Assembly (NCBI GenBank): GCA_918797485.1
Contig: CAKKNE010000005.1
Location: forward strand, 4,712,001-4,776,000
Origin: Pelagomonas calceolata
Taxonomy: Eukaryota
Reading direction: 5' to 3'
DNA length: 64,000 nucleotides
Both the position numbers and the translations under genes were made by a program. Every line of letters starts with the position of its first letter. The stretch's first letter is position 1. Shown here one piece after another: positions 9,571-62,148 of this stretch. The notes under the pieces are model-generated. The model did not search any database and was not told the origin of the DNA. It worked only from the letters and a program-made list of their open reading frames with translations.

Positions 9571-10619
9571 ATGGCCTCCATCCTCTGCTGCACTTCCGGC
9601 AACCAGACCGTCGAGGCCGTCGTCCAGCCCGCGTGGGACAACCACTTCGCTGCCTTCGGCGGCCAGGACGTTAGCAAGGTCCTGCTCGACTACTGCGAGG
9701 AGTCCAAGATCATCGTCTACAACTGGCACGACGACACCGAGACCGTGTACAACGGGATGGCTGGCGCCTGTGTGGAAATCAAAATTTTACGGCGCGTTCG
9801 TGCTGAATCGTCGCGTCGTCCTCCACGCCATCGACGCGACGCCTGCTCGATGGCGTGGCGATGCCGGTTCCTCGCCGCTCGACCGAGCCAGGACGGAGGC
9901 GTCATTGCCGAGAAATGACTTAGTGAAGAATTGTCGGGTGCACCTGACACACTGGGTTGATTTCCACACAGGCGGGCGCCAAGGAGTGCTTCACGGGCCT
10001 CTTCGCCGCGCTGCCCGATCTCTCGGGCCTCGCCGCGCCGGAGATCCACGTCGAGGAGGGCAACCCGAAGTCGGTCTTCCTCATCTGGCGCTGCCCGAGC
10101 TCGGGCTTCGTGCACTGCACGGACACCTTCCTCTTCAACGACGCCGGCAAGATCGTGCGCCAGACCGTCTGCATCCTCAACCCGGGCGCGCCCGCGGGCA
10201 AGGCGCCGCTCTGCACGGAGCCGCAGGGCGGCCCGGTCCAGGCGTCGTGGGACAACCACTTCGCCGCGTTCGGCGCCCAGGACGTCGACAAGGTCCTCAA
10301 GGACTACACCGAGAAGTCGGTGATCAAGGTCTATAACCAGGTGACGGACGAGTTGGTCGAGTTCAAGGGCCTGAAGGGAGTCAAGGAGTGCTTCACTGGC
10401 CTGTTCAAAGACCTCTCCGACCTGTCGGGGCTCGCCGCGCCCGCGATCCGCGTCGAGGAGGCCACCGAAGACAAGGCGGGCATGGTCTTCCTCGTGTGGC
10501 GCTGCCCGAGCTCGGGGTACAACCACGCGACCGACACGTTCCTCTTCGACGCCGCGGGCAAGATCGCGAAGCAGAATGTTGTCATCATGAAGCCGGCGGC
10601 CGAGGCGGGCGAGCAGTAA
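9571..10619 (+). CDS. tandem SnoaL/NTF2-like domain protein; exons 9571-9759 and 9972-10619 (278 aa)
   Basis: Two internal repeats (WDNHFAAFG.QDV.KVL.DY...FL.WRCPSSG...TDTFLF..AGKI); removing 9760-9971 restores colinearity (NGMAGAKECF vs KGLKGVKECF). Confidence 0.75.
9768..9971 (+). mobile_element. introner/MITE copy 1, full length (204 bp); GC-AG intron 9760-9971
   Basis: Perfect 13-bp TIR CTGTGTGGAAATC/GATTTCCACACAG; TSD gctggcgc/gcgggcgc; internal 12-bp inverted repeat 9823-9834/9847-9858. Confidence 0.92.
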
Positions 10620-10863: not shown

Positions 10864-11800
10864 ATGACGACGCACGCGAACATCTACCCGACGTTCACCA
10901 TCAAGGACTTCGCCAAGGCGCACGGGCAGCGTCCGCAAAGCCGGGGGCAGCGTGCGCGCCAACGCATGCCGCCATGTGCACATGGGAGCTTGGTCTAGTG
11001 GTAGGATACGCGCTTCGGGAGCGCGAGGTCGCTGGGTTCGATTCCCGCAGTTCCCCTATCGCAGTCGCTGGACGCGCGCACCCCCAACGCAGGCCAAGCC
11101 GCTGCTCGACAAGTGCGTCGAGGACACGAGGGCCGAGGCGGGCTGCCTCTACTACGGCTGGACGATCAAGGAGGACGGCTCGAAGCTCTTCTGCCGGGAG
11201 ACGTACGTCGACGGCGCGGCCGCGGGCCACCACCTCTCGTGCGTCGCCAAGTCCGGCGCGCTCGGGGAGGCCCTCGAGAAGGGCTACATCGCGCTCGACA
11301 ACATCGACCTGATGGGCACGGAATCCGACATCGCCGACGCGAAGAAGGTGCCCGAGTTCGAGGGCTTCGGCCTCGGCTCCTGGACGGTCTGGGACTCGTT
11401 CCAGAACTTCAAGCAGACGTCGGCCGAGGAGGCCTCCACCGCCGACTTCTTCACGATCCAGCCCACGTTTACCATCAAGGACCTGAAGCAGGCGGAACCG
11501 TTCATGAAGAAGTGCGTCGACCTCACGAGGAACGAGAAGGGCTGCATGTACTACGGCTGGACGATCCAGGGCGACAAGCTCTTCTGCCGCGAGGCCTACG
11601 TCGACGCCGCCGCCGTCCAGGCCCACCTCGACAACATCGTGCCGTCCGTCGGCGAGATGCTCGATTCGGGCGCCGCGTCGCTGGACAAGATCGAGTTCCA
11701 CGGCCCGAAGGAGGGCTGGCCGACGTTCAAGAAGAGCGCCGACGCGCTCGGCGCCATCTACTGGGACCGCTACGCCAGCTTCTCCAAGTTCAAGATGTGA
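10864..11800 (+). CDS. tandem ABM-like (dimeric alpha-beta barrel) domain protein; exons 10864-10917 and 11093-11800 (253 aa)
   Basis: Two repeats PTFTIKD...CV..TR.E.GC.YYGWTI...KLFCRE.YVD.AA...HL; GC-AG intron 10918-11092 gives exact repeat alignment. Confidence 0.75.
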
Positions 11801-14992: not shown

Positions 14993-16612
14993 TTAGGCGG
15001 AGGACTGAGGCAGCTCGTCGGGCCAGTCGTCCGTGTCGCCCGACGCGCGGAACGCCCGGATGTTCTCGACCCACTCCGTCTCGCCCTCCTTGATCCTCAG
15101 ATTCCCGACGAGGATGGAGTTGTTCTGGTGGTCCTTGGACGCGGCGACCTTCAGGCGCAACGTGCCGGAGACGCCTCTTGCTTTCAACTTGAAGTTGATG
15201 AACCCGTCCGTCGACGTCTTGCCCGACTTGGACTTGGGGACGAGCTTCGGCACGAGCGGTCTGTCGTCTTTTGTGGAATTAATGCCCTTCATAATCAAAC
15301 AACCGCCGGCCGCTTTACCGGAAGGCGCGTCCAGTACCAAAGCGCCGGTGGCGTTCCGGTAGTTCGCGGGGCCCTTAAAGCCCGGTTCGAGCTTTTCCTC
15401 GGGGTCCTCGGGTACCCCCGCGTTGTCTTTCACCCTCCTGGTATAGTACCTACCAGTAACGGCGACGAAGGCCTTGTCCGCCTCGACCTCGTCGGCCGTC
15501 TTTTCGGTCGTGTCGCGCTTCTTCACGGGTCGCAGGTTGGCCAACAACGCCTGTTGCTTCTGGGGGTCGTCAATCGTGATGTACTTCCTTGCTAGATCAT
15601 GGGCCAGGTCGGCCTTCTTGGCACCCAAATCCAAGATACCTTGTAGTGTAGTACCACTCTTGTACGTTTCATAAGAATCATAAGATTTCGTATTGGCCCG
15701 TTTCGGGTTCTCCTGGAGGCACGTGCACGACTCGCCCATGAAGGCTTCCAAACACGACTGCGGCAGCTCGAGCTTGGGCGCTTTTTCTTTTTTTTCCTTC
15801 TCGACCTTCGGCGACGGCGGCGGCGGCGGGTTCGACGGGCGGTAGACCGTGCCAACTTGTTCATTTGGCGTCGGCGGGCCGTTGTTGGGGGTTATACCCA
15901 AGGCTTTCGCCTTGCCCTGCCTAAATTCGTCGTCGTCGATGATGCCGTCGTCATGTAAGCGTTTGAGCTTGCGCAGGGCTTCCTCGTCGATGGGGTAGGG
16001 CCCGACGAGCGTCTCGGGGCCGATGTACGGTACTGGTGAAGATCTCTGCGCCGGTGCATCATCATCGGTCTTCTTCGCGCGCTTCTTACTCGGTTTCTTG
16101 GCCTTGATTTTGCGCTTGACGACGGGCGCGCGCTCCTTCCAATCATCTCTATCTTGCTGGGATAGGGCCTTCCACATCTTGCCTAATTCCGCAATGATCT
16201 TCTGGGACCGCTCGCGCGGCGCCAAACCCTCCATCGCATTTACTCTTGTGGTGACTTCGGGGCGGTGCTCGTTGCTGAAGTGGAGGTAGCCGCTCACCTG
16301 TGTGGAAATCAAAATTTTACGTTCGTGCTGAATCTTCGCGTCTACCTGCACGCCATCGACGCGACGCCTGCTCGATGGCGTGGCGATGCCGGTTCCTCAC
16401 CGCTCGACCGAGCCAGGACGGAGGCGTCATTGCCGAGAAATGACTTAGTGAAGAATTGTCGGGACGCACTGGTTGATTTCCACACAGCCCGACACCTTGG
16501 CCATCTTGTAGCCCTCCTCGACCTCGTCGCCGTTCTCGTCCTGCTCGTCGTCGTCATTCAAGGCGTCGTCCTCAATGGCGCCGACGTCCATGGCGTCGTC
16601 GCGGTCGGCCAT
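14993..16612 (-). CDS. HMG-box protein; exons 16612-16496 and 16297-14993 (473 aa)
   Basis: Acidic N-terminus spliced to K|VSGYLHFSNEHRPEV...IIAELGKMWKALSQQDRDDWKERA HMG box; SHOCT-like LRKLKRLHDDGIIDDDEF. Confidence 0.8.
16298..16487 (+). mobile_element. introner/MITE copy 2 (190 bp), opposite orientation relative to host gene compared with copy 1; GT-AG intron 16495-16298 on minus strand
   Basis: Perfect TIRs; near-identical to copy 1; gene-strand TSD gtgtcggg/gtgagcgg. Confidence 0.92.
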
Positions 16613-17879: not shown

Positions 17880-18893
17880 TTATTGCAGCGGAGTCCTCAC
17901 CGTGAGAGCCTCGACGGAGTCGTCGTCCGACTCCGACTCCGTCACGCGCTGGTGGACCCACTCGTCCGCGACGGAGTCGTACTCTTTTTTCTTCGAGCCC
18001 TCGCGCTCGACGCGCTCGCGGCTCACGGCGGAGTAGAGCGAGAGCGACGCAAGAACCAGCGCCACGGCGGCGGCGAAGAAGGGCGCCGCGGCCGAGAAAT
18101 CGCGCTTGGTACGTCGCGTACCGCGCTCGGCCGACGTCTTCAGGCCGAGCCAGAGCGAATAGCCGAGGCCCAGACCCAAAGCCGCGGCGACGGCGCCCAC
18201 AATCTGGATGCCGCCCGAGAGGCGACCCTGTTTCTCGGGCGGGACGACGCCGTTGATGTACAGGTACTGGAGGTTTGCGGGCGCGGCTATGAATAGAACG
18301 GCCGTGGCTGCGAAGAGTAGTCCTACATCATACGCGGCGCCGATGCCCAAGAAACCGACCGCATGTATGATTAATCCAATGGCGAGGCACTTCGCCGGCC
18401 CCACTGCCTTTCGCAGCCAGAACCAGTACAGGACGAAGCCGACCGCGAGCGTCGCCACGGCGACGGCGTGCAGCTCAAAGTAAAGACGTTTGGATAGGTC
18501 GAAGCGCCAAAGCAAAAAGTATGCCAGAACGGGCATCGACGCGGCAATTCCCAGGAAATTAAAGAAATAGGACCTGTGTGATAATCAAGCAGTGAGGGCC
18601 TCAAATACCTCCACGCCATCGAGCAGTGACAGGGACAACGTCACGTCGATGGCATAGAGCGCGAAGACCGCCGCCCGCACGGGGTCATCTCCGGCGAGCT
18701 TCGTGACGTAGAGCGGCAGACAACTGAAAAATACGCCCCCGCCGACACCCTTCAATGTATGCCACAATATGAACGCGAAAAGCGCGTCGTTCGCGCGCTC
18801 GGCGGTTTCGTGGGCCGAGGTCCAGACGCGCTCGGCCGTCTGGACGAGGGGCGTCGTCTCGACCTTTTTCTTGGACGAGGCGGCGGCGCCCAT
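17880..18893 (-). pseudogene. MFS transporter (TetA/MFSD14-like), apparently missing TM2-6 at a one-ended introner; truncated gene or pseudogene
   Basis: 5' ORF has one TM then runs into element-like sequence; 3' part (18572-17880) encodes ~6 TMs with V.PEKQGRLSG motif. Confidence 0.5.
18574..18656 (+). mobile_element. one-ended degenerate introner copy
   Basis: ctgtgtgataatcaagcagtgag matches start of copy at 44739; contains ctccacgccatcga...gtcgatggc internal palindrome; other TIR not found. Confidence 0.65.
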
Positions 18894-24849: not shown

Positions 24850-26016
24850 CTAGTTCAGGAACGGGTCCGCCAACAGCATCCGAAAGAACTTCCCTCCTTC
24901 CCCGAACTCCTGCTTCGCCGCGCGAAGCAATCCGAGGCATTCGTCCCTCCGGTCGTCGTCGCGCAGGGCCAGCAAACAAACGCCCACCGTCGCCCGGCAG
25001 TGAGCTCTTTCCCGTTCGGGCACTGCCTTCATCTCGATCTGTGGAAATCAACCAGTGCGTCGGGTGCACCCGAAAATTCTTCACTAGTCTAGTCATTTCT
25101 CGGCGACGACGTGGCCGCGCTGGCTCCGTCGAGCGGTGAGGAACCGACACCGCCACGCTATCGAGCAGGCGTCGCGTCGATGGCGTGGAGGTCGACGCGG
25201 CGATTCAGGACGAACGCGCGCCGTAAATTTGATTTCCACACAGATCTCCACGTCTTGCTCGGCCACCAAGAGCGTGCGTTCCACGACACCTAGGAGTCGG
25301 GCTGGGTCCTCTCCTTTCTCATAAATCATCCGCAGATTCCTCAGCATCCGCGCTGCCAGCGAGAGACCCTCGAGAGGGGAAACATCGGTCAGCTGCGACC
25401 GCGCGTTCTCAAGCACGTTTCCGCCCCCGAACGCGTCCACCACAAAGGTCTCGGAAGTGTCGTCCGGAGCTACTAGAACATGCATCGGCGTGTTGAGCAG
25501 AGAGAACGGTGTGCCCGCGGCGGCACAAGCTCTCGCAAAAACCAAGCTCATCGTGATCGGGATGCCTCGGCGTCTCCGAATGACTTCGTCGATGAGCGAG
25601 TTGGCTGGATTGTAGTAGTCGTCGACGTCTCCCGCGAAGAATTCAATTTTTGTATTGTTCTCCTCGGGCAGGCCCTGATCGCCGAACATCGCAGCACCGA
25701 CAGCGCGCGCCACGACCGCCGCACCGCTGCGGTCCCCGAGCATCAGCTCAAGGCGTGCGCGCGTCGTCGCTCGGGCAGCCAGCTCGTCCAGCGCCTCGGT
25801 GACTCGTTTTTCACAAGCGGAGAGCGGCTCGTCTGGCTTCTCTTCGGCCGCGATTGCTATAGCGATTGCGAGGTCGTCAGGTTTGGGACGTGCTATCTCT
25901 GCGGCAAAAGCATTGCGCGCCTCGCAACCGCTACGGAGGCGTGCGTCCTGCAGCGGCGTCAGCGCTGCTGCTGCTGCTGTGCATGTCAGCAGCCAAAGTG
26001 TTGCACGGTGCAGCAT
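24850..26016 (-). CDS. SirB1/Transglut_core2-like protein; exons 26016-25252 and 25038-24850
   Basis: DYYNPANSLIDEVIRRRRGIPITMSLV; P.H; VVDAFGGG; RMLRNLR..Y; splice gives AEQD|IEMK. Confidence 0.8.
25039..25243 (-). mobile_element. introner/MITE copy 3 (205 bp); GT-AG intron 25251-25039 on minus strand
   Basis: Reverse-complement homologue of copy 1; one TIR lacks 2 nt but keeps CAG; gene-strand TSD gtggagat/atcgagat. Confidence 0.9.
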
Positions 26017-30373: not shown

Positions 30374-33119
30374 ATGATGCGCGCCGAGACGCGCCAGTCG
30401 ACCGCGGCGGCCGCCGGACCGCCCGCGAGCGAGCCCCCGCCCCCGAAGGCCAACTTCGAGCCGGAAGACCGGCCGAAGAAGGAGCCCACGAAGCCCGAGG
30501 CGTTTTTGGCGCGGCAGCGCCAGCTCGGGAGCCTGGGCGGGAAGTGCGCCGGTAGTGTTGGAGAGAACAAGTTCTTGGTGGAGGTCGCCGTCGACGGGCG
30601 CGCGAGGTGTCAACTGCGGACGTGCAAGGAGCCTCTCAAAATAGGAGAATTACGTTTAGGGAAGCGGCCGCCGTCGCGACCTGTGTGGAAATCAATTCTT
30701 TACGAAGTGGTGATGAACCGGCATCGCCACGCCATCGAGCAAGACGATTCAGTACGAACGCGCCGTAACACACAGGTCGCTGCGCCACGGCCACAACCCC
30801 AAGGTCACGTGGTACCACCCGGAGTGCGCCATGAAGGCCTTTCTCGCGTGCTCCGCCAAAAGCAGAGTAGTAGAGAAAGTCGAAGATATCGACCACGGCT
30901 GGGACGCGCTGTCTGACACGAACAAAGCCTTCATTCGATCCATCGTCGACGGCGCGCCGAAGTCGCAAGCGCCGCGCAAAATCCAACGGAAGCCGTCGCC
31001 GCCCACCGAGAAGATCAACGAGACGGACGAGAGCTTGTGGGTGCCGAAGCGGGGCGACGACTGCTACAGTTTGTGGCGGGGAGTCTGGTACCCGGCGAAG
31101 ATCGTGAGCGTGATCCGAGACACCTACGAGGTCCATTATAGTGGATGGGGCACGCAGCACGACCACTCGACGTCGCGGAAGCACTTAAGACACAAGGACT
31201 ACGACTTCGACCTCGACGACCCCAGCGCGCCGAAGCCGGCGCCCCAGCCCTCGCAACACATCCTCCGGTCGAACCAGCAGCCCGAAAGTCCGGACGCCGG
31301 CCGCACGGGCTTGTACCGGTCGCCGGAAAAGGGCTCGGACGGCGCGCCGTTGCACAACATGTTGGATCTGTTCGCCGAATCTTCGGATGAGGAGGACGAG
31401 AAGGACTCGCGGAAAGCGTGTGAATTGAGAAGGGTCGGCGGGCCCTGGCGGAGGTTTAGTTCGAGAAAAGCCGCCGCGAAGGCATTTCCCGGTGCCATTA
31501 CCTCCTCCGACGTCTCGCGACTCATCGCCGCCCCCGATAAATGTCCCCGCAGAGTGAGGGACGCCTTCGAGGCGAGGGAGGTGCGGTCCATGAAGCGCTG
31601 CCCGGCGTGTGGGGTTGAGCGCGCCCATCCCGCCATGTTCCGCGACGACACCGGCCGCTCGACGAAGAACTGCAAGAAGTGCCCCCAGGAACTCGAGGAG
31701 AACCCCTACGCCAAGACCTATGGCAAACGGCCCACGGCGCCGCCCACGGCCCATTCGGCGCCGGGCCCCGCCTGGGAGCACCGTTCCGTACAAAAGCGCA
31801 AGCGGCCGGGCGGGCTGCGCGCCGCGCCGCCGACGAAACGGCGCGCCGATCTGGGCTACGAGCCCTCCTCGTCGAAGAGTGGTGGTCTCAGGGACGTCCT
31901 CCAAGCGGCCCAAGCGCTCGCGCCGCCGCCGCCCGGCTCCAAGAAGACGGGCCCCGTGCCCGTGAAGTTGAGTGCGGTCAAGGTCAAACAATTACTCATG
32001 ACGGACAAGGCGGACATGAGAGGGGAAGAATTGTGCGCCGCGTTGGACGCGGGCGGCCCGAACCAGACCCAGGACGACTACGGTAGATGTGGTGGCATGT
32101 TGAGTGGAAGGTTGGGGCCGAACAAGTTCTGCGTGGACTACGAGAGACAGATCCGGTCGAAGTGTAAGCGGCTGCGGTGCAAGCGGTCGTTCAACGATGG
32201 TGAATTACGCGTTGGTAAAATACCACCTAGGGCGAGAAAAGATGTACCAGCTAGACGGGTCCACTGGTACCACCCCGCTTGTATTTTCAAGAGCTTTGAG
32301 CGCGCTTCCAAAAAGACGAAGACGATCGACACTGTGGAGGACATGGAGGGCTTCGCCGAGCTCAAGGAGGCGGACAAGGCCGACCTGACCTCGCGCGTCG
32401 CGGCCTGGGTCGCGCGCAAGGCGGCGATGAACGCCAACTACAAGCCCAAGAAGCGCAAGCGCCGGGGCGGCGACTGGCTGCCGTCGCCGACACAATCCTT
32501 CGACAACACGGCGTCCTTTGATGATGGAGAGGAGGACGACGGTGAAGAGGAGGCCGACGAGGAGGCTGTGGACTTGCTGGTGGGCCTCACGCAGCAGCGG
32601 CCCGCCGTCGCGCGGTCGCCGCACGACGAGGGCGCGGCCGAGCTCCTCGCGGCGCTCGCCGGGTCGCCGCCGCCTCCATCAAACGCGGCGGCGCCCTCCT
32701 CCACTGAAACGTTCGCCGTCGGCGACGTCGTCGAGGCGAATTTTGAAGGCGCGGGACACTGGTACCCCGGCAGAATTGCGTCGTTGGACTCCGGGAGCTA
32801 TGAAATTGCCTACGACGACGGCGAGAGCGAGTCGGGCGTCTCGCCGGCCGACGTGCGGCGCGCGCCGGCGCCGCCCCCCGCGGGCGGCGGTTATGTGGAT
32901 GCGGTCCTCACGGCGCCGCCGGCATCAACAGAGGAGATCGCGCACTCCGAGGCCCCGAAGCCCGCCGAACCCCCATCCACGGTCATCACGCCCCCCGCGA
33001 CGCAGTCGCGGCCGCAGCTCGACGACGAGAAGGAGCGGCTGCGCCTCGAGCGAGACGCTGCTCGTAGAGAGCTCGAGGCCCTCAAGGCGCAGCTAGCTCA
33101 ACAATCCTCCTCTGCTTAA
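30374..33119 (+). CDS. protein with two PARP-type zinc fingers and Tudor-like domains; exons 30374-30672 and 30776-33119
   Basis: Splicing completes zf-PARP (RARCQLRTCKEPLKIGELRLG...WYHPEC); second zf-PARP (RSKCKRLRCK...HWYHPACIF); WYPAKI...YEVHYSGW and WYPGRI...YEIAYDDG Tudor-like motifs. Confidence 0.82.
30681..30775 (-). mobile_element. internally deleted introner copy (95 bp); GT-AG intron 30673-30775
   Basis: Left TIR perfect, right reduced to cacacag; internal blocks are reverse complement of copy 1; TSD gtcgcgac/gtcgctgc. Confidence 0.85.
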
Positions 33120-43599: not shown

Positions 43600-45429
43600 A
43601 TGCGAACACCAATGAGTGCACGCGTCGCGCCTATGGAGCAGGCGCCGGCGCCAGCGATGTTGGTCCCTTTGGACGCACCCGGCGACCAGCGTTTGGCGCT
43701 GGGGCTGGACCTGCGAGCCGACGAGGTGCGATGCGTCGCGCTCTGGCACGACGGGTCGATCGTAGCGCCGGCGGTCACGCACCGCCTGGAGAACGTGGCC
43801 CTGCTGGGCGCCGTCGCGGCGCTGGCGAACGCCGCGCGAGCGTACGTTTCTGATGTGGGTCGCGCGTGGGCGGACGTCGCCTGCGTGGGCGTCGCGCCGC
43901 CGGGCGAGGTCGAGGAGGACGTCGTGACGGCGCCGTGCTTCGGCTGGGTCGCCGCGCCGCTGCGACGCGCGCTCGCGGACGCGCTCGACGTGCCGACGGC
44001 GCTCGCGCGGCGCGCCGAGGCTTCTCTGTTGGCGGAGGCGCGGCCCGGCGGGGCTGCGGCGCCACGCGAGGGAGATGAAGGGTCGGCGGCGTTGCTTGCA
44101 TTGGGCGACACCGTGGAAGGCGCGCTCGCGCTGAATGGTCAAATCAGAAACATGGACGCCGCGCAACTGATCACAGACGGGACAGCGGAAACGCTGGCCG
44201 CCGCGTGCCTCGCCATCGCCGCGATCGCGGATCCGGACGTCATCGTCGTCGCGGGAATCACGCCGGCACTCCACCGTGCCACCGTCGACGCGGCGTCGCG
44301 GTCGCCGGTCTGGATCGCGAGCGGCCGCGCGGCGATCCGCCTCGCGCTGTGCGGCGACGACGCGCTGGCCGTCGGCGCCGCGGCGAAGGCGGCGACCTGC
44401 TTGGAAGACGACGACGAGCCGATGGAAACGGTGCGGGAGATGCGGGCCGCCGAGACGACGACGACGCCCGAGCACGTGCCAAAGTACTTTCTGCGCGCGG
44501 CGACGGAGGAGGAGGACGCCGGTGCGCTGGTTGATATATGCGTCAGGACAGGGGGCGCGGGCGGCTCTGACGCCTCGGCCCAGTTCGCGCGCGACCCTGG
44601 CATCCTCGGCGAACGCTATGCCCTGCCGTACCTACGCCTCGAACCGGAGCTCTGCGCAGTCGCCGTCGAGAGCGAGACCGGCTACATCGTGGGATACGCG
44701 GTCGCTACTTTAGATACGGGCGAATTTTGCGCGCGTATCTGTGTGGAAATCAAGCAGTGAGTGAGTTAGGTCATCGCCGTCGAGCCGACGCGGTCACGGG
44801 ACGTCGTGTCGATGGCGTGGGGCGCTTGAAATTTCATTCCCACACAGGCCCGAATACAGCTGGAATACCTACCGGGCGTGCGAGACAGGTATCCCGATCC
44901 GCACCAAAAACCGCGCGCTGCCTGGAGCGCCGAGGATCTCGTGGCCAGGGACCTGCACGATCCACTGTGCGGTCGGCCGCCGCGGGGGCTGGACGACGAC
45001 TTCTACGCGGCGCACCTGCGCGTGCACGTGCTGCCGGAGGCGCGGCGCGCCGGTCTTGGCACGCGCCTCGCGACAGAACTGCTTGGGCGCTTGAGAGAAG
45101 CGGGCGCGCGGGGCTGCCACGCTGCCGTCCCCGCGGCGGACGTGCGCGCGCGGCGCTTCGCCGAGTCCCTCGGCTTCCGGCCGCTGCCGGCGCCGGGATA
45201 CTTCGGGTTCGCGTTCAACGACGATGATCCGGGCGTCGCGGAGACGAAAGCGGAGACGCCTGGTTCCGCGGTTCGTGGCAGCCGGCGGGGCGTGGCATCT
45301 TGGGTCGGTAGCAGTGGCGGGTTGCTGGGGGCCGCCGCGGAGCGAGCGTACCACGAGACGCCTGCGAAAATGAGCTTCGGGGCCGCCGCGATGGCGTCCG
45401 CGATGGCGGCGCGCGCGCGAGTGACATAA
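43600..45429 (+). CDS. ROK-like domain fused to GNAT acetyltransferase; exons 43600-44730 and 44848-45429
   Basis: LGLDL, VGVA.PG.V, DPDVIVVAG, ALAVGAA (ROK); ICVRTG..G.DA, YA.PYL.LEP, AHL.V..LPEARRAGLG (GNAT). Confidence 0.7.
44739..44847 (+). mobile_element. shortened introner copy (109 bp); GC-AG intron 44731-44847
   Basis: Left TIR perfect, right cattcccacacag; TSD gcgcgtat/gcccgaat; in-frame stop inside. Confidence 0.85.
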
Positions 45430-57708: not shown

Positions 57709-58254
57709 ATGCCGCGCCTCGCGGTGGCGCTGGCGCTCTGCGCCGCAGCGTCTGCCTTCCAGGCGCCTGTGTCGCAGCCCGCCCGCAGCAGCCTCGCGCG
57801 GCACGCCGAGGACCCGACGAAGGTCTGGTACGCCGACCTCGCGAACGGCGTGCAGAACCTCCTGCAGAACTCGCCGCTCAACGAGGGAAAAAAGGCCGTC
57901 GTGAAGATGATGGCTGGTGGTTACGATGTCGCCGCGACGAACGAGAAACTGGACGAGCTCATCGCGAACCCGGTCGTTATGCTGTCGTTCACGAAATGAC
58001 CCTTCTGCATCAAGGCGAAGCAGCTGCTCGACGCCAAGGGCGCCAAGTACGTCGCCTACGAGCTCGACCAGGCCGACGACGGGCCAGCCATCCGCGCGGA
58101 GATGTGCGACCGTATTGATCGTACCTCAGTCCCGGCCATCTGGATCGACGGCGTCTACGCCGGCGGCTGCAACGACGGCGGGCTGGGGGGCGTCGTGAAG
58201 CTCGACCAGCAGGGCCGGCTCGACGAGCTGCTCAAGGCGGCCGGCGCCGTCTGA
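57709..58254 (+). CDS. selenocysteine-containing glutaredoxin (UPFC), plastid-targeted; TGA 57997-57999 = Sec97
   Basis: ASA-FQAP presequence; FTK-TGA-PFCIKAK; frame continues through RTSVPAIWIDG..AGGCND to stop 58252-58254. Confidence 0.9.
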
Positions 58255-58562: not shown

Positions 58563-59730
58563 ATGCAGCCCCAGCAGCCGCCGGGCTTCTCTCCAGAACT
58601 TGGTGGAGAGGGAGAGTCCAATGCTGTCGTCATGGGAACAGTCGTCGAGGGAACAGTCGTGCAGCCGCCCGCCCAATCCGTAACAATCGTGCAGCCGGCC
58701 GCCCAACCCGTGGTCCTCGCCCCGCAAGATGTACGTGCGCGCGGCCTCGCCGTCGTGCAGCCGCAGCCGGTGTACGGGCAGCCCCAGCCCCAGCCGCAGC
58801 CCGTCGTCGTGCCCCAGCAGCCCGGGACGTACGCGCAGCCGCCGTACGGGCAGCCCCAGGGCCAGCCGCAGCCCGTCGTCGTGCCCCAGCAACCCGGGAC
58901 GTACGCGCAGCCGCCGTACGGGCAGCCCCAGGGCCAGCCGCAGCAACCCGGGACGTACTACGCGCAGCCGCCGTACGGGCAGCCCCAGGGCCAGCCCCAG
59001 CAGCCCGGGACGTACTACGCGCAGCCGCCGCCCGTGGCGTCCAAGGTGATGCCGATGCCCATGAACGGCCAGATGATGATGCCGCAGATGATGATGCCGC
59101 AGGTGGTACGGGCCCCCGGCCAGTGGAACGGCGGCCAGCCGTGCGGGTGTTGCGACCCGCCGGGCGGCTGCCAGCTCTGCTGCGCCACGTGGTGGTGCCC
59201 GTGCGCGCCGGTAGCGCAGCTCCACGACCGGGTCGTGAGGCCGGGGAGTCACGGGGAGGTCTTCGCGGTCCTCTGCATTGCGCCGGCCCGCGCGGAAATC
59301 ATCTTAAACGGATGAACGCCGACACACCGGTTGCTTTGCACGCAGGCGACGGTTTTCAAGACGGTCGTGAGCTTGCTTTTGACGGCGGCTGGGGTGAACA
59401 TCGACGGTATGCTGCAGCGTGGAATCGTCTTCGCGTCGAGGGCGTGGGGGGCTGACGCGGTCGATCGTCCGCACAGGCCTGCTGAACATGCTACTCGCTT
59501 TCCTCTATTTGCTTTACATGAACCAAATAAGAGAGGCCATCGTCAAGCGGGACGGGATCGCCGACCGCGGGCTTATCTGCTGTGGCGACCCTTGCTGCGA
59601 CAACTACTGGTGTTGGCCCTGTCTGACTTGCTTCTTCATCCGGCACGAGCTCAACAGGAGCGGCGAGACCTACGACGACTGTTGCGGGCCCAGCTGGTCC
59701 CGCGGCGGCGGGCGGGCGCACGTCGTCTGA
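58563..59730 (+). CDS. PLAC8-family Cys-rich membrane protein with P/Q/Y-rich repeats; exons 58563-59279, 59346-59406, 59477-59730
   Basis: W.GG.CGCC.......C..WWCPC...AQL; IR..I..R.GI...CC..YWC.PC; two short introns restore frame. Confidence 0.75.
59288..59345 (+). mobile_element. highly decayed introner relic; GC-AG intron 59280-59345
   Basis: ccgcgcggaaatc vs TIR ctgtgtggaaatc; ends gacacaccggttgctttgcacgcag vs gacacactgggttgatttccacacag; TSD gcgccggc/gcgacggt. Confidence 0.7.
59415..59476 (-). mobile_element. highly decayed introner relic; GT-AG intron 59407-59476
   Basis: cagcgtggaatc...cgcgtcgagggcgtgg...gatcgtccgcacag; TSD gtatgctg/gcctgctg. Confidence 0.65.
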
Positions 59731-60000: not shown

Positions 60001-60456
60001 CTAGAGCTCCGCGAGGAGCGCGGCGGGCCCCTCTCGCGCGTCGAACGGGTCGATGCACTTGACAACGGTGCCGTCGGCGCCGACGACGACCGTCACGCGC
60101 GCGGACTTGTCGCAGGGGTCCGAGCCGTCCTTCGCCGGCTTGCAGACGCCGAACGCCTTCGTCATGGACTTGTCGACGTCGGAGAGCAACGGAAACGCGA
60201 AGTCGAACTTCTCGTGGAAGGCCTTGTTCGCGTCGACGGCGTCGCAGCTCACGCCGTAGAGGTCGTAGCCCTTGGCTTTAAATTGGTCGCAGAGCGCCGT
60301 GAACGCCTGCCCCTCCGCGGTTCACCCACCCGTGTCCGCCTTAGGGTAGAACCACAAACAGTAGGCCGAGCCCGCGAGCGAGTCCGACGAGACCGCGGCG
60401 CCCGTGTGCGCCGTCACAGCGAACTTGGGCACCTGGGCTCCGGCCTTCAAGGACAT
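60001..60456 (-). CDS. selenocysteine-containing peroxiredoxin (PrxQ/BCP family); TGA 60324-60322 = Sec45 at the peroxidatic position
   Basis: MSLKAGAQVPKF...WFYPKADTGG-TGA-TAEGQAF...GVSCD...FPLLSD...R.T.VVG.DG.V, one frame across the TGA. Confidence 0.9.
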
Positions 60457-60623: not shown

Positions 60624-61055
60624 GTGACTGATTTGTCCTTCGAGCACTCGCGGTTGGCCACCTGTCTCAGCGGCAAGGCAGAAGAGGCAATTTTTTCATG
60701 ATTCTCGCTAGATAAGAGCACTAGCTCTCCCATTTTTGAAAATAGCAGCGCCCATTCACAGCCTTATAACTCCGTCGCTGTGCGCTTCCTGAGTCCACCG
60801 AGTCACTATGAGCTCACCACAACATATATGAGGGCGCGCGGCAACGAAAATGCTGCGCGCGGTGACCGCGGGCGCGATTTTTGGCCGAGGCGCCCCCTGG
60901 AACACGCGCTGCAGCGACGCGGCGCAGGGCCGCGCCGCGCGCCGCCTCGCGCCACGCTCTCGCTGCCGCGCCGCCAGCGCGCCACCCCACACACGCAAAA
61001 CGCCGCCGCCGCGGACGCGCCGATCACGTTCGAACGCGCGCAGGCGAAAAGCACC

Positions 61056-61850: not shown

Positions 61851-62148
61851 GCGCGTGTTGCTTCCCTATCTCTAATGTCTCGGCCTATTACTCTTCCTTC
61901 CGGCGCCGGCGGCCGAGCGTGCCCTCTTCGCGTCGACGGCGTCGGGGGCGGTGCCGGGTCGGGCGCCGAGGCGCGGGAGCGACCTCTTCGCCGGGCTCCA
62001 CGCCATCGACGCGACGTCCACTCGAGTTTGCCGCCGCGCGAGGCCTTGCCGACGGAATAGGAGTAGAACAGATATATGTTAAGGGCGGCGCGCTCACGGG
62101 CGCCGGTTGGCATGTGCAGGCCAGGACTATGCACACAAAAAAACGCCA

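What the first reader, a model, noticed from the sequence alone, without database searches (positions are those of the whole stretch)
59280..59476. Decay series: two ordinary-looking 66-70 bp introns are eroded introners
Seen: both PLAC8 introns keep 6/8 TSD matches and degenerate TIRs. One starts ccgcgcggaaatc, the TIR with three TG/CG differences, and ends with a recognisable subterminal block. With the 204/190/205-bp, 109-bp and 95-bp copies this gives a size and divergence gradient. Inference: elements shrink by internal deletion to minimal introns, so many short introns in this genome may be old insertions of the same family.
Basis: partly seen in the sequence, partly recalled or inferred. 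Interest (0 to 1): 0.75.

Follow-up and report, generated by a model that had tools for sequence, protein, structure and literature searches.

The report
Introners whittled down to short introns
Two short introns in a gene of a marine alga are worn-down copies of a 203-base intron-making mobile element, and wild versions of a neighbouring copy show such elements likely being trimmed in place, step by step, to near-ordinary intron size, a process already proposed for fungi and green algae.

Summary
Observation confirmed. RNA reads splice both PLAC8-like introns (59280-59345, 66 nt, GC-AG; 59407-59476, 70 nt, GT-AG). Both keep 6/8 target-duplication matches and align with a 203-bp terminal-inverted-repeat (TIR) introner family; none of 3000 random window segments scored as high. 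The spliced protein equals a database protein labelled Pelagomonas calceolata, for which introners are published.

In-place shrinkage has good support. At the neighbouring 95-bp copy, 110 database proteins read into the same insertion; read-through lengths imply 14 intron sizes (73-155 nt, none full-length). Intron 1 is 65-67 nt in 21 visible alleles. A relative lacks both introns, and some haplotypes lack intron 2.

Size is not a clock: among 55 metagenome copies length does not track divergence (rho -0.10), and 5 of 22 short copies keep perfect duplications. The claim that many short introns genome-wide are remnants could not be tested because no genome is held.

Introner decay into ordinary introns is already proposed for fungi and Micromonas. 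I did not find the single-site allele series in eight literature searches. The cause of the deletions is open; I favour incomplete gap repair after transposase cuts (about 0.4).

The parts
58563..59730 (+). PLAC8-like gene, three coding exons (58563-59279, 59346-59406, 59477-59730), 343 aa
   Evidence: Joints in RNA reads; spliced product identical to P0274, labelled Pelagomonas calceolata by its source; PF04749 E=2.4e-5 on P0001, below cut-off
59280..59345 (+). Intron I1, 66 nt, GC-AG; remnant of family A in reverse orientation, about 150 nt deleted internally
59280..59287 (+). I1 left target-site copy; supplies the GC donor
   Evidence: 6/8 match to 59346-59353
59288..59300 (+). I1 left TIR, three T>C changes at TG steps
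   Evidence: read as APARAE in 116 of 117 alleles that read into I1, APACAE in one
59308..59345 (+). I1 subterminal block and right TIR; supplies the AG acceptor
   Evidence: 38-column alignment to the end of the 204-bp copy, p=0.001
59346..59353 (+). I1 right target-site copy, kept in exon 2
59407..59476 (+). Intron I2, 70 nt, GT-AG; more eroded remnant, family A or B not resolved; absent from some haplotypes
   Evidence: (A+ 27.4, B+ 24.6)
59407..59414 (+). I2 left target-site copy; supplies the GT donor
   Evidence: 6/8 match to 59477-59484
59431..59465 (+). I2 internal block matching one arm of the element's palindrome
   Evidence: alignments to the 204-bp and 205-bp copies
59477..59484 (+). 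I2 right target-site copy, kept in exon 3
9768..9971 (+). E1, full-length family A copy (204 bp, TSD 7/8); predicted 212-nt GC-AG intron 9760-9971
   Evidence: folds at z=-5.15; splicing not checked with reads
16298..16487 (-). E2, family A copy (190 bp, TSD 5/8); predicted 198-nt GT-AG intron
   Evidence: open frame after removal
25039..25243 (-). E3, family A copy (205 bp, TSD 6/8); predicted 213-nt GT-AG intron
   Evidence: open frame after removal
30681..30775 (+). E4, family A copy with four deletions (95 bp, TSD 6/8); 103-nt GT-AG intron 30673-30775; site of the allele length series
   Evidence: (spliced model matches uninterrupted protein P0089)
44739..44847 (+). E5, family B copy (109 bp, TSD 6/8); predicted 117-nt GC-AG intron 44731-44847
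18574..18663 (-). E6, family copy with one TIR lost; probable intron, donor not determined
   Evidence: nhmmer E=1.3e-12; several in-frame donors possible

Best explanation
The two RNA-confirmed introns are remnants of a 203-bp TIR introner family that likely inserted with an 8-bp target duplication and were then likely cut down in place by repeated internal deletions to a size below which splicing would probably fail. Shown: the first duplicate supplies the GY donor, the TIR end supplies the AG, and splicing leaves the second duplicate, so the reading frame is restored. Shown from translated alleles: one insertion site carries many different deletion forms. Inferred: deletion runs ahead of point mutation, halts near 62-73 nt, and the stub then erodes by substitution (often TG to CG) and loses its fold. 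For the cause of the deletions I commit to incomplete gap repair after the family's transposase cuts at intact TIRs (inferred, about 0.4; no transposase was found or sought).
For: Splicing and homology. Intron-making anatomy: 66 of 70 metagenome copies have GT/GC at the TSD and AG at the far end (33% expected). Gain: 6 of 7 members of a relative's cluster (76% identity, contigs up to 47,982 nt) read through both intron sites while carrying another insert downstream; 7 proteins that start in I1's 3' end read through the I2 site; empty alleles for an 88-nt and a 101-nt copy. In-place deletion: of 134 proteins examined, 110 read into an insert at the E4 site; 69 distinct tails including the window's; 22 read-throughs give 14 lengths from 73 to 155 nt, none 211; nested case P0063 (97) to P0103 (73); L112 and L153 share a flank and each keeps bases the other lost. 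38 deletions of 8 nt or more in 23 of 40 family A copies, breakpoints mostly unique. Floor: shortest implied introns 62 and 69 nt among 55 copies; I1 is 67 nt in 20 alleles and 65 nt in one (lengths inferred from frame). Fold: z=-5.15 (E1), -1.83 (E5), -0.64 (E4), -0.85 (I1), +0.88 (I2). For gap repair: deletion number does not rise with private substitutions (rho -0.12, n=40); 105 of 110 E4-site alleles keep the first 11-12 nt of the 5' TIR (not independent events).
Against: No excess microhomology at deletion junctions (mean 0.74 against 0.72, p=0.46), although it is reported for gap-repair miniaturisation in PMC3814204 (passages). E4 and a 63-nt copy in L129 lost most of one TIR. E4-site lengths come from peptides, not DNA; some rows (P0080 group, P0090) look like paralogues, and without them 13 lengths remain. 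Metagenome contigs can be chimeric: several copies have TSD 1-3/8 and L097/L111 share only one flank. Some deletions recur (147/148-171 in four family A copies; 102-159 in six family B copies), so some short forms may have been mobile. I2 alone is marginal in a whole-window profile search (E=0.18). No allele with a longer I1 or I2 was seen, so their own intermediates are not observed.
Confidence: 0.82

Rival explanations
1. Same origin and in-place shrinkage, but the deletions are ordinary background deletions kept by selection for short introns in a very large population, with no role for the transposase.
For: No junction microhomology; deletions that remove most of a TIR (E4, L129); 0.097 deletions per substitution in family A, which from recall is near values reported for neutral Drosophila DNA; deletion-biased decay is stated for Micromonas and fungal elements (PMC3879977, passage).
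Against: Deletion number does not track private substitutions; family C has 2 deletions for 219 substitutions (0.009), though it may simply be young; more than a dozen lengths at one site need a high rate or soft sweeps.
Confidence: 0.35
2. Same origin, but the deletions are caused by the element's own hairpins (TIR stem and 36-nt internal palindrome) stalling replication or being cut.
For: E1 folds at z=-5.15 and short forms do not; breakpoints cluster near consensus positions 32-33, 147-152 and 171-175.
Against: The palindrome region is among the best retained interior parts (0.73-0.92 of 23 deleted copies at positions 111-140); no direct repeats at junctions.
Confidence: 0.2
3. The short introns are insertions of already short, separately mobile sub-families; little shrinkage happened in place.
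For: 5 of 22 short copies have 8/8 TSDs; an 88-nt copy has an empty allele; shared deletions in family B and some family A copies; parallel insertions 5 nt apart in L127/L137 show sites can be hit twice.
Against: At the E4 site all long tails map to family A in one orientation at one position, with nested deletions; most junctions are unique; copies with a truncated TIR are poor candidates for mobilisation (inference).
Confidence: 0.12
4. The likeness of the two introns to the element is chance in GC-rich DNA.
For: Whole-window profile E-values are only 0.081 and 0.18; a 6/8 boundary match has a 2.9% background; I2 is missed by the TIR-pair scan.
Against: Three separate features fall in register at the RNA-defined borders; 0 of 3000 and 0 of 901 control segments reach the scores; absence in a relative and in some haplotypes.
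Confidence: 0.05
5. The allele series at the E4 site is an artefact of metagenome assembly through a repeat.
For: Only translated contigs were seen; low-TSD copies suggest chimeras exist in such data.
Against: Junctions lack the shared words that misjoins need; the same 97-nt form recurs in 5 sequences and others in 2-3; 22 tails run into the correct downstream exon; the window itself carries a deleted form.
Confidence: 0.07

Closest known systems
Pelagomonas calceolata putative introner elements (PMC9481584 and preprint 10.1101/2021.10.25.465678; passages and supplementary file 2 passages seen)
   Same: Same species label on the identical protein; intron peak near 210 bp matches 203+8; GT and GC donors, AG acceptor, TIRs.
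   Different: [quoted passage not shown] The logo (a figure) and Supplementary Data 3 could not be seen (file cut), so sequence identity with their families is untested.
Aureococcus anophagefferens introners of Huff, Zilberman and Roy 2016 (not held; recalled, and cited second-hand in PMC9481584 and 10.1101/2022.06.06.494994)
   Same: From recall: non-autonomous DNA transposons of about 200 bp with 8-bp TSD and TIRs, one splice site carried and one co-opted. The donor-from-TSD class is described in 10.1101/2022.06.06.494994 section 7.
   Different: Sequence relationship not tested; whether that paper treats eroded copies could not be checked.
Fungal introner-like elements that degenerate into regular introns (PMC3609843, PMC4457414; passages seen)
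   Same: Long, stably folded elements shorten, lose structure and become like ordinary introns; parallel gains at nearby sites.
   Different: The passages seen argue from comparisons between copies and species, not from a set of alleles at one site; here the element has TIR and 8-bp TSD.
Micromonas introner elements and their remnants (PMC3879977; passages seen)
   Different: Different lineage and sequence; proposed there as a possibility, with remnants described mostly outside coding sequence or inside older introns.
Abortive gap repair making internally deleted DNA transposons (PMC3814204; passages seen)
   Same: Deleted derivatives keep both ends and arise at the donor site.
   Different: That paper finds 6-8 bp microhomology at junctions in its three families; none in excess here.

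Membership tests
TIR/TSD introner (DNA-transposon-derived intron) | Removed from mRNA as a spliceosomal intron | tested here: met
   I1 and I2 joints in reads and contigs, GC-AG and GT-AG
TIR/TSD introner (DNA-transposon-derived intron) | Similarity to other introns in unrelated genes reaching both borders | tested here: met
   Clear for I1; for I2 met only with gapped TIRs, missed by the gap-free scan
TIR/TSD introner (DNA-transposon-derived intron) | Target-site duplication that supplies a splice site and restores the frame | tested here: met
   6/8 for each, background 2.9%; 66 of 70 family copies splice-compatible
TIR/TSD introner (DNA-transposon-derived intron) | Terminal inverted repeats | tested here: met
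   Perfect 13-15 nt in full copies; degenerate in I1 and I2
TIR/TSD introner (DNA-transposon-derived intron) | Intron gain: empty site in relatives or alleles | tested here: met
   At protein level only: relative's cluster lacks both; 7 haplotypes have I1 but not I2. Precise loss in those lineages is not excluded.
TIR/TSD introner (DNA-transposon-derived intron) | Autonomous partner transposase with matching ends | not testable with these tools
   No genome held
Published P. calceolata introner set (956 putative elements) | [quoted passage not shown] | not testable with these tools
   Logo is a figure; Supplementary Data 3 not visible
Degenerating introner-like elements (fungal model) | Loss of length and of stable predicted structure | tested here: met
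   z from -5.15 (212 nt) to -0.85 and +0.88 (66, 70 nt) in five introns folded
Degenerating introner-like elements (fungal model) | Length falls with sequence divergence across copies | tested here: inconclusive
   True for seven window copies; not for 55 metagenome copies selected for one perfect TIR
Abortive gap repair derivatives | Microhomology or filler at deletion junctions | tested here: not met
   Microhomology 0.74 against 0.72, p=0.46, 38 junctions; filler not counted
Abortive gap repair derivatives | Both element ends retained, deletion at the donor site | tested here: inconclusive
   105 of 110 keep the 5' TIR start; E4 and L129 lost most of one TIR; splicing also selects for the 3' end

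The most novel reading that the evidence does not exclude
In this alga introners are whittled from 211 nt to a 62-73 nt floor within the age of present-day alleles, by an element-specific deletion process, so that each insertion site carries a readable genealogy of shrinking introns and most short introns outside the low-GC regions are such stubs, far beyond the 956 elements counted.
Probability: 0.35. Interest if true: 0.72.

Novelty: new member of a known kind. Interest (0 to 1): 0.5.

Why it matters
Whether ordinary spliceosomal introns are decayed introners is a standing question, argued so far from comparisons between copies and species. A single site with 14 implied intron lengths among wild sequences, plus fixed stubs of 65-67 nt, would let the birth-to-ordinary-intron path be measured directly with an existing genome and ocean metagenomes. 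It also implies that introner counts based on near-full-length similarity are underestimates. The elements and the general idea are already published, which limits the score.

Tried and rejected
Genome-wide test: no genome held. A home-made gene finder joined neighbouring genes with false introns and missed I1; discarded. The 20-kb read lay was swamped by repeat joints and listed 15 of 104 joints, so it could not enumerate introns. Of ten introns I could model in the window, eight are family-derived, but most were found by likeness to the element, so this is no test. TIR scan of viral contigs: 53 hits, about what chance gives by my estimate; not examined further. Searches for the gene in prokaryote genomes and for the E4 gene in viral contigs found nothing. 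Search with the reading frame that starts in I2 gave one uninformative hit. Rows dropped before counts: of 121 metagenome loci, those without a partner TIR in the held DNA gave no element; of 71 elements, L152 was dropped as chance, and L096, L100 and L169 fit no family well, leaving 55 A/B and 12 C. Family B rests on two full-length copies. The consensus used includes two window copies (E1, E3), not I1 or I2. Huff et al. 2016 is not held. Term look-ups in PMC11282704 and PMC12130899 returned nothing relevant. Three look-ups of earlier findings were empty. The reading that TG>CG marks an older sub-family was considered: the change is common across copies (20 of 54 partner-TIR substitutions; 58 of 893 TpG/CpA sites against 50 of 1759 other T/A sites, falling to 37 of 835 against 50 of 1735 once frequent columns are removed), so it looks like the usual direction of decay, but this is not settled.

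Full report
Verdict. The idea of one size-and-age gradient is too simple, and the genome-wide claim is untested.

1. The introns are real. Raw polyA reads join 59279 to 59346 (66 nt, GC..AG; 20 and 17 reads in two runs of one sample) and skip 59407-59476 (70 nt, GT..AG; 27 and 22 reads); one contig in each of two other runs shows both joints. The spliced product, 343 aa, is identical to P0274, which its source labels Pelagomonas calceolata. Pfam PLAC8 matches near-identical P0001 at E=2.4e-5, under the curated cut-off.

2. They belong to the window's element family. Both have 6/8 boundary matches against a 2.9% background (705 of 24,567 pairs). I1 keeps the left TIR with three T>C changes and a 38-column right end; I2 keeps gapped TIRs and a palindrome arm. 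Against the family consensus they score 22.2 and 27.4, reached by 0 of 3000 random and 0 of 901 CAG-ending window segments. I1 is also found blind by a TIR-pair scan (28.5 bits, null maximum 14.2); I2 is not. In a whole-window profile search both are only marginal (E=0.081 and 0.18; null best 0.27). I put I1 at about 0.97 and I2 at about 0.85.

3. The family. Full-length copies are 203 bp in three interior types: A and B, which occur in the window, and C on contigs of 66-75% GC. In 66 of 70 the duplicated target begins GT or GC and the far TIR ends AG (33% expected). So the donor is co-opted from the target duplication and the acceptor is carried, one of the classes described in 10.1101/2022.06.06.494994 section 7. 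A 211-nt intron fits the 210-bp peak, GT/GC donors and TIRs reported for P. calceolata (PMC9481584 and its preprint, passages).

4. Gain. Six of seven members of a relative's cluster (76% identity over the query; contigs up to 47,982 nt) read through both intron sites, and carry a different insert of about 65 nt whose translation resembles the element (no null test). Of 144 proteins examined, 123 reach the I1 site; 117 read into I1 and 6 are uninterrupted, probably transcript-derived or annotated. Seven proteins begin in the last 15 nt of I1 and run straight through the I2 site: haplotypes, or close paralogues, with I1 but without I2. Partly spliced transcripts or precise loss are not excluded.

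5. Shrinkage in place. A/B copies range continuously from 54 to 205 nt, 22 of 55 under 120 nt; the 12 C copies are 173-207 nt. Family A shows 38 deletions of 8 nt or more in 23 of 40 copies, mostly with unique breakpoints. The strongest evidence is the E4 site (30673-30775). Of 134 database proteins, 110 read into an insert at this position, 4 are uninterrupted and 20 do not reach the site or differ. With the window there are 69 distinct tails. The 22 that read through to the next exon imply 14 intron lengths: 73, 83, 86, 92, 95, 97, 101, 103, 104, 107, 113, 119, 131 and 155 nt, none 211. Thirteen remain without the paralogue-like rows. Long tails map to family A in one orientation, with nested losses (P0063, 97 nt, to P0103, 73 nt). 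On DNA, L112 and L153 share a flank and each keeps bases the other lost. By contrast I1 is 67 nt in 20 alleles and 65 nt in one where it can be read whole, and the shortest implied introns among the 55 copies are 62 and 69 nt. These lengths are inferred from peptides or from assembled contigs, not from raw reads.

6. Not a clock. In the window the smallest copies are the most diverged. In the 55 copies length is uncorrelated with divergence (rho -0.10, p=0.49) and weakly correlated with TSD match (rho 0.29, p=0.03; chimeric contigs may contribute); 5 of 22 short copies and a 63-nt copy in L129 have 8/8 duplications. That sample lacks old copies by design, and cheap-gap alignment can hide substitutions. 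The reading that fits is two phases: fast deletion, then slow substitution. Predicted folding falls from z=-5.15 (E1) to -0.85 and +0.88 (I1, I2). TG>CG is the commonest TIR change across copies (20 of 54).

7. Mechanism of deletion. Incomplete gap repair after transposase cleavage is the known route to internally deleted DNA transposons (PMC3814204, passages). It fits early deletion, retained ends and the freeze of TIR-mutated I1. It does not fit the lack of microhomology (p=0.46) or the copies that lost most of a TIR. I give it about 0.4, background deletion with selection for short introns 0.35, and hairpin fragility 0.2. Some short forms may also have been mobile (shared junctions).

8. 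What is known. Decay of introners into ordinary introns by loss of length, sequence and structure is proposed for fungi (PMC3609843, PMC4457414; passages), and for Micromonas with the explicit remark that many canonical introns may be degraded elements (PMC3879977, passage). Eight searches (listings read) showed no report of a single-site allele length series or of eroded pelagophyte copies. Huff et al. 2016 is not held and is cited from recall; Supplementary Data 3 and Figure S3 of PMC9481584 could not be seen and may bear on this.

9. Score. New instance of a known process, with an unusually direct population-level record. Interest 0.5.

Noticed in passing
window 10984-11056 (+): A tRNA-Pro(CGG) gene lies inside a predicted 175-nt GC-AG intron (10918-11092) whose removal gives an open frame; no element features (boundary match 3/8). 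Splicing not checked with reads.
   Followed up: partly
window 60780-61043 (+): A 264-nt GT-AG intron upstream of the PCNA-like coding sequence (name from recall of the sequence), joined in 402 and 277 reads, with no TIR and a 2/8 boundary match: an ordinary intron as control.
   Followed up: partly
window 57709-58254 (+) and 60001-60456 (-): A glutaredoxin-like and a peroxiredoxin-like frame (names from recall) each contain one in-frame TGA at the position of a redox cysteine: likely selenocysteine. SECIS not sought.
   Followed up: partly
window, 17 sites such as 6821, 19220, 21742, 43343, 47694: An 11-nt motif occurs 17 times with up to one mismatch (0.24 expected); longer versions recur between genes. 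Probably a promoter element.
   Followed up: partly
window 61990-62025: A lone fragment of the element's internal palindrome, without TIRs, between two genes (nhmmer E=9e-5).
   Followed up: no
window 59407-59476: I2 is partly retained: depth 6.4 and 4.9 inside against 39-48 and 25-47 beside it; database protein P0248 has I1 removed and I2 retained. The left duplicate differs from the right by two changes that give a GT donor, possibly an improved splice site (inference).
   Followed up: partly
window 58563-59730: The gene is very variable among wild sequences: 81-100% identity over a 54-aa query for 59 hits, variable Gln/Pro repeat number, and a distinct exon 2-3 type. Divergent haplotypes or paralogues; not resolved.
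   Followed up: no
L127 1030-1122 and L137 301-438: Two different elements inserted 5 nt apart in alleles of one gene, each absent from the other: parallel intron gain.
   Followed up: yes
L064, L084, L087, L099 and others (family C): A third family on 66-75% GC contigs has the same TIR and the same 203-bp length but an unrelated interior, and almost no deletions.
   Followed up: partly
P0080-P0083, P0090: Paralogue-like proteins with different N-termini carry the same insertion at the E4 position, while P0084-P0086 do not; gene conversion or repeated insertion is possible.
   Followed up: no
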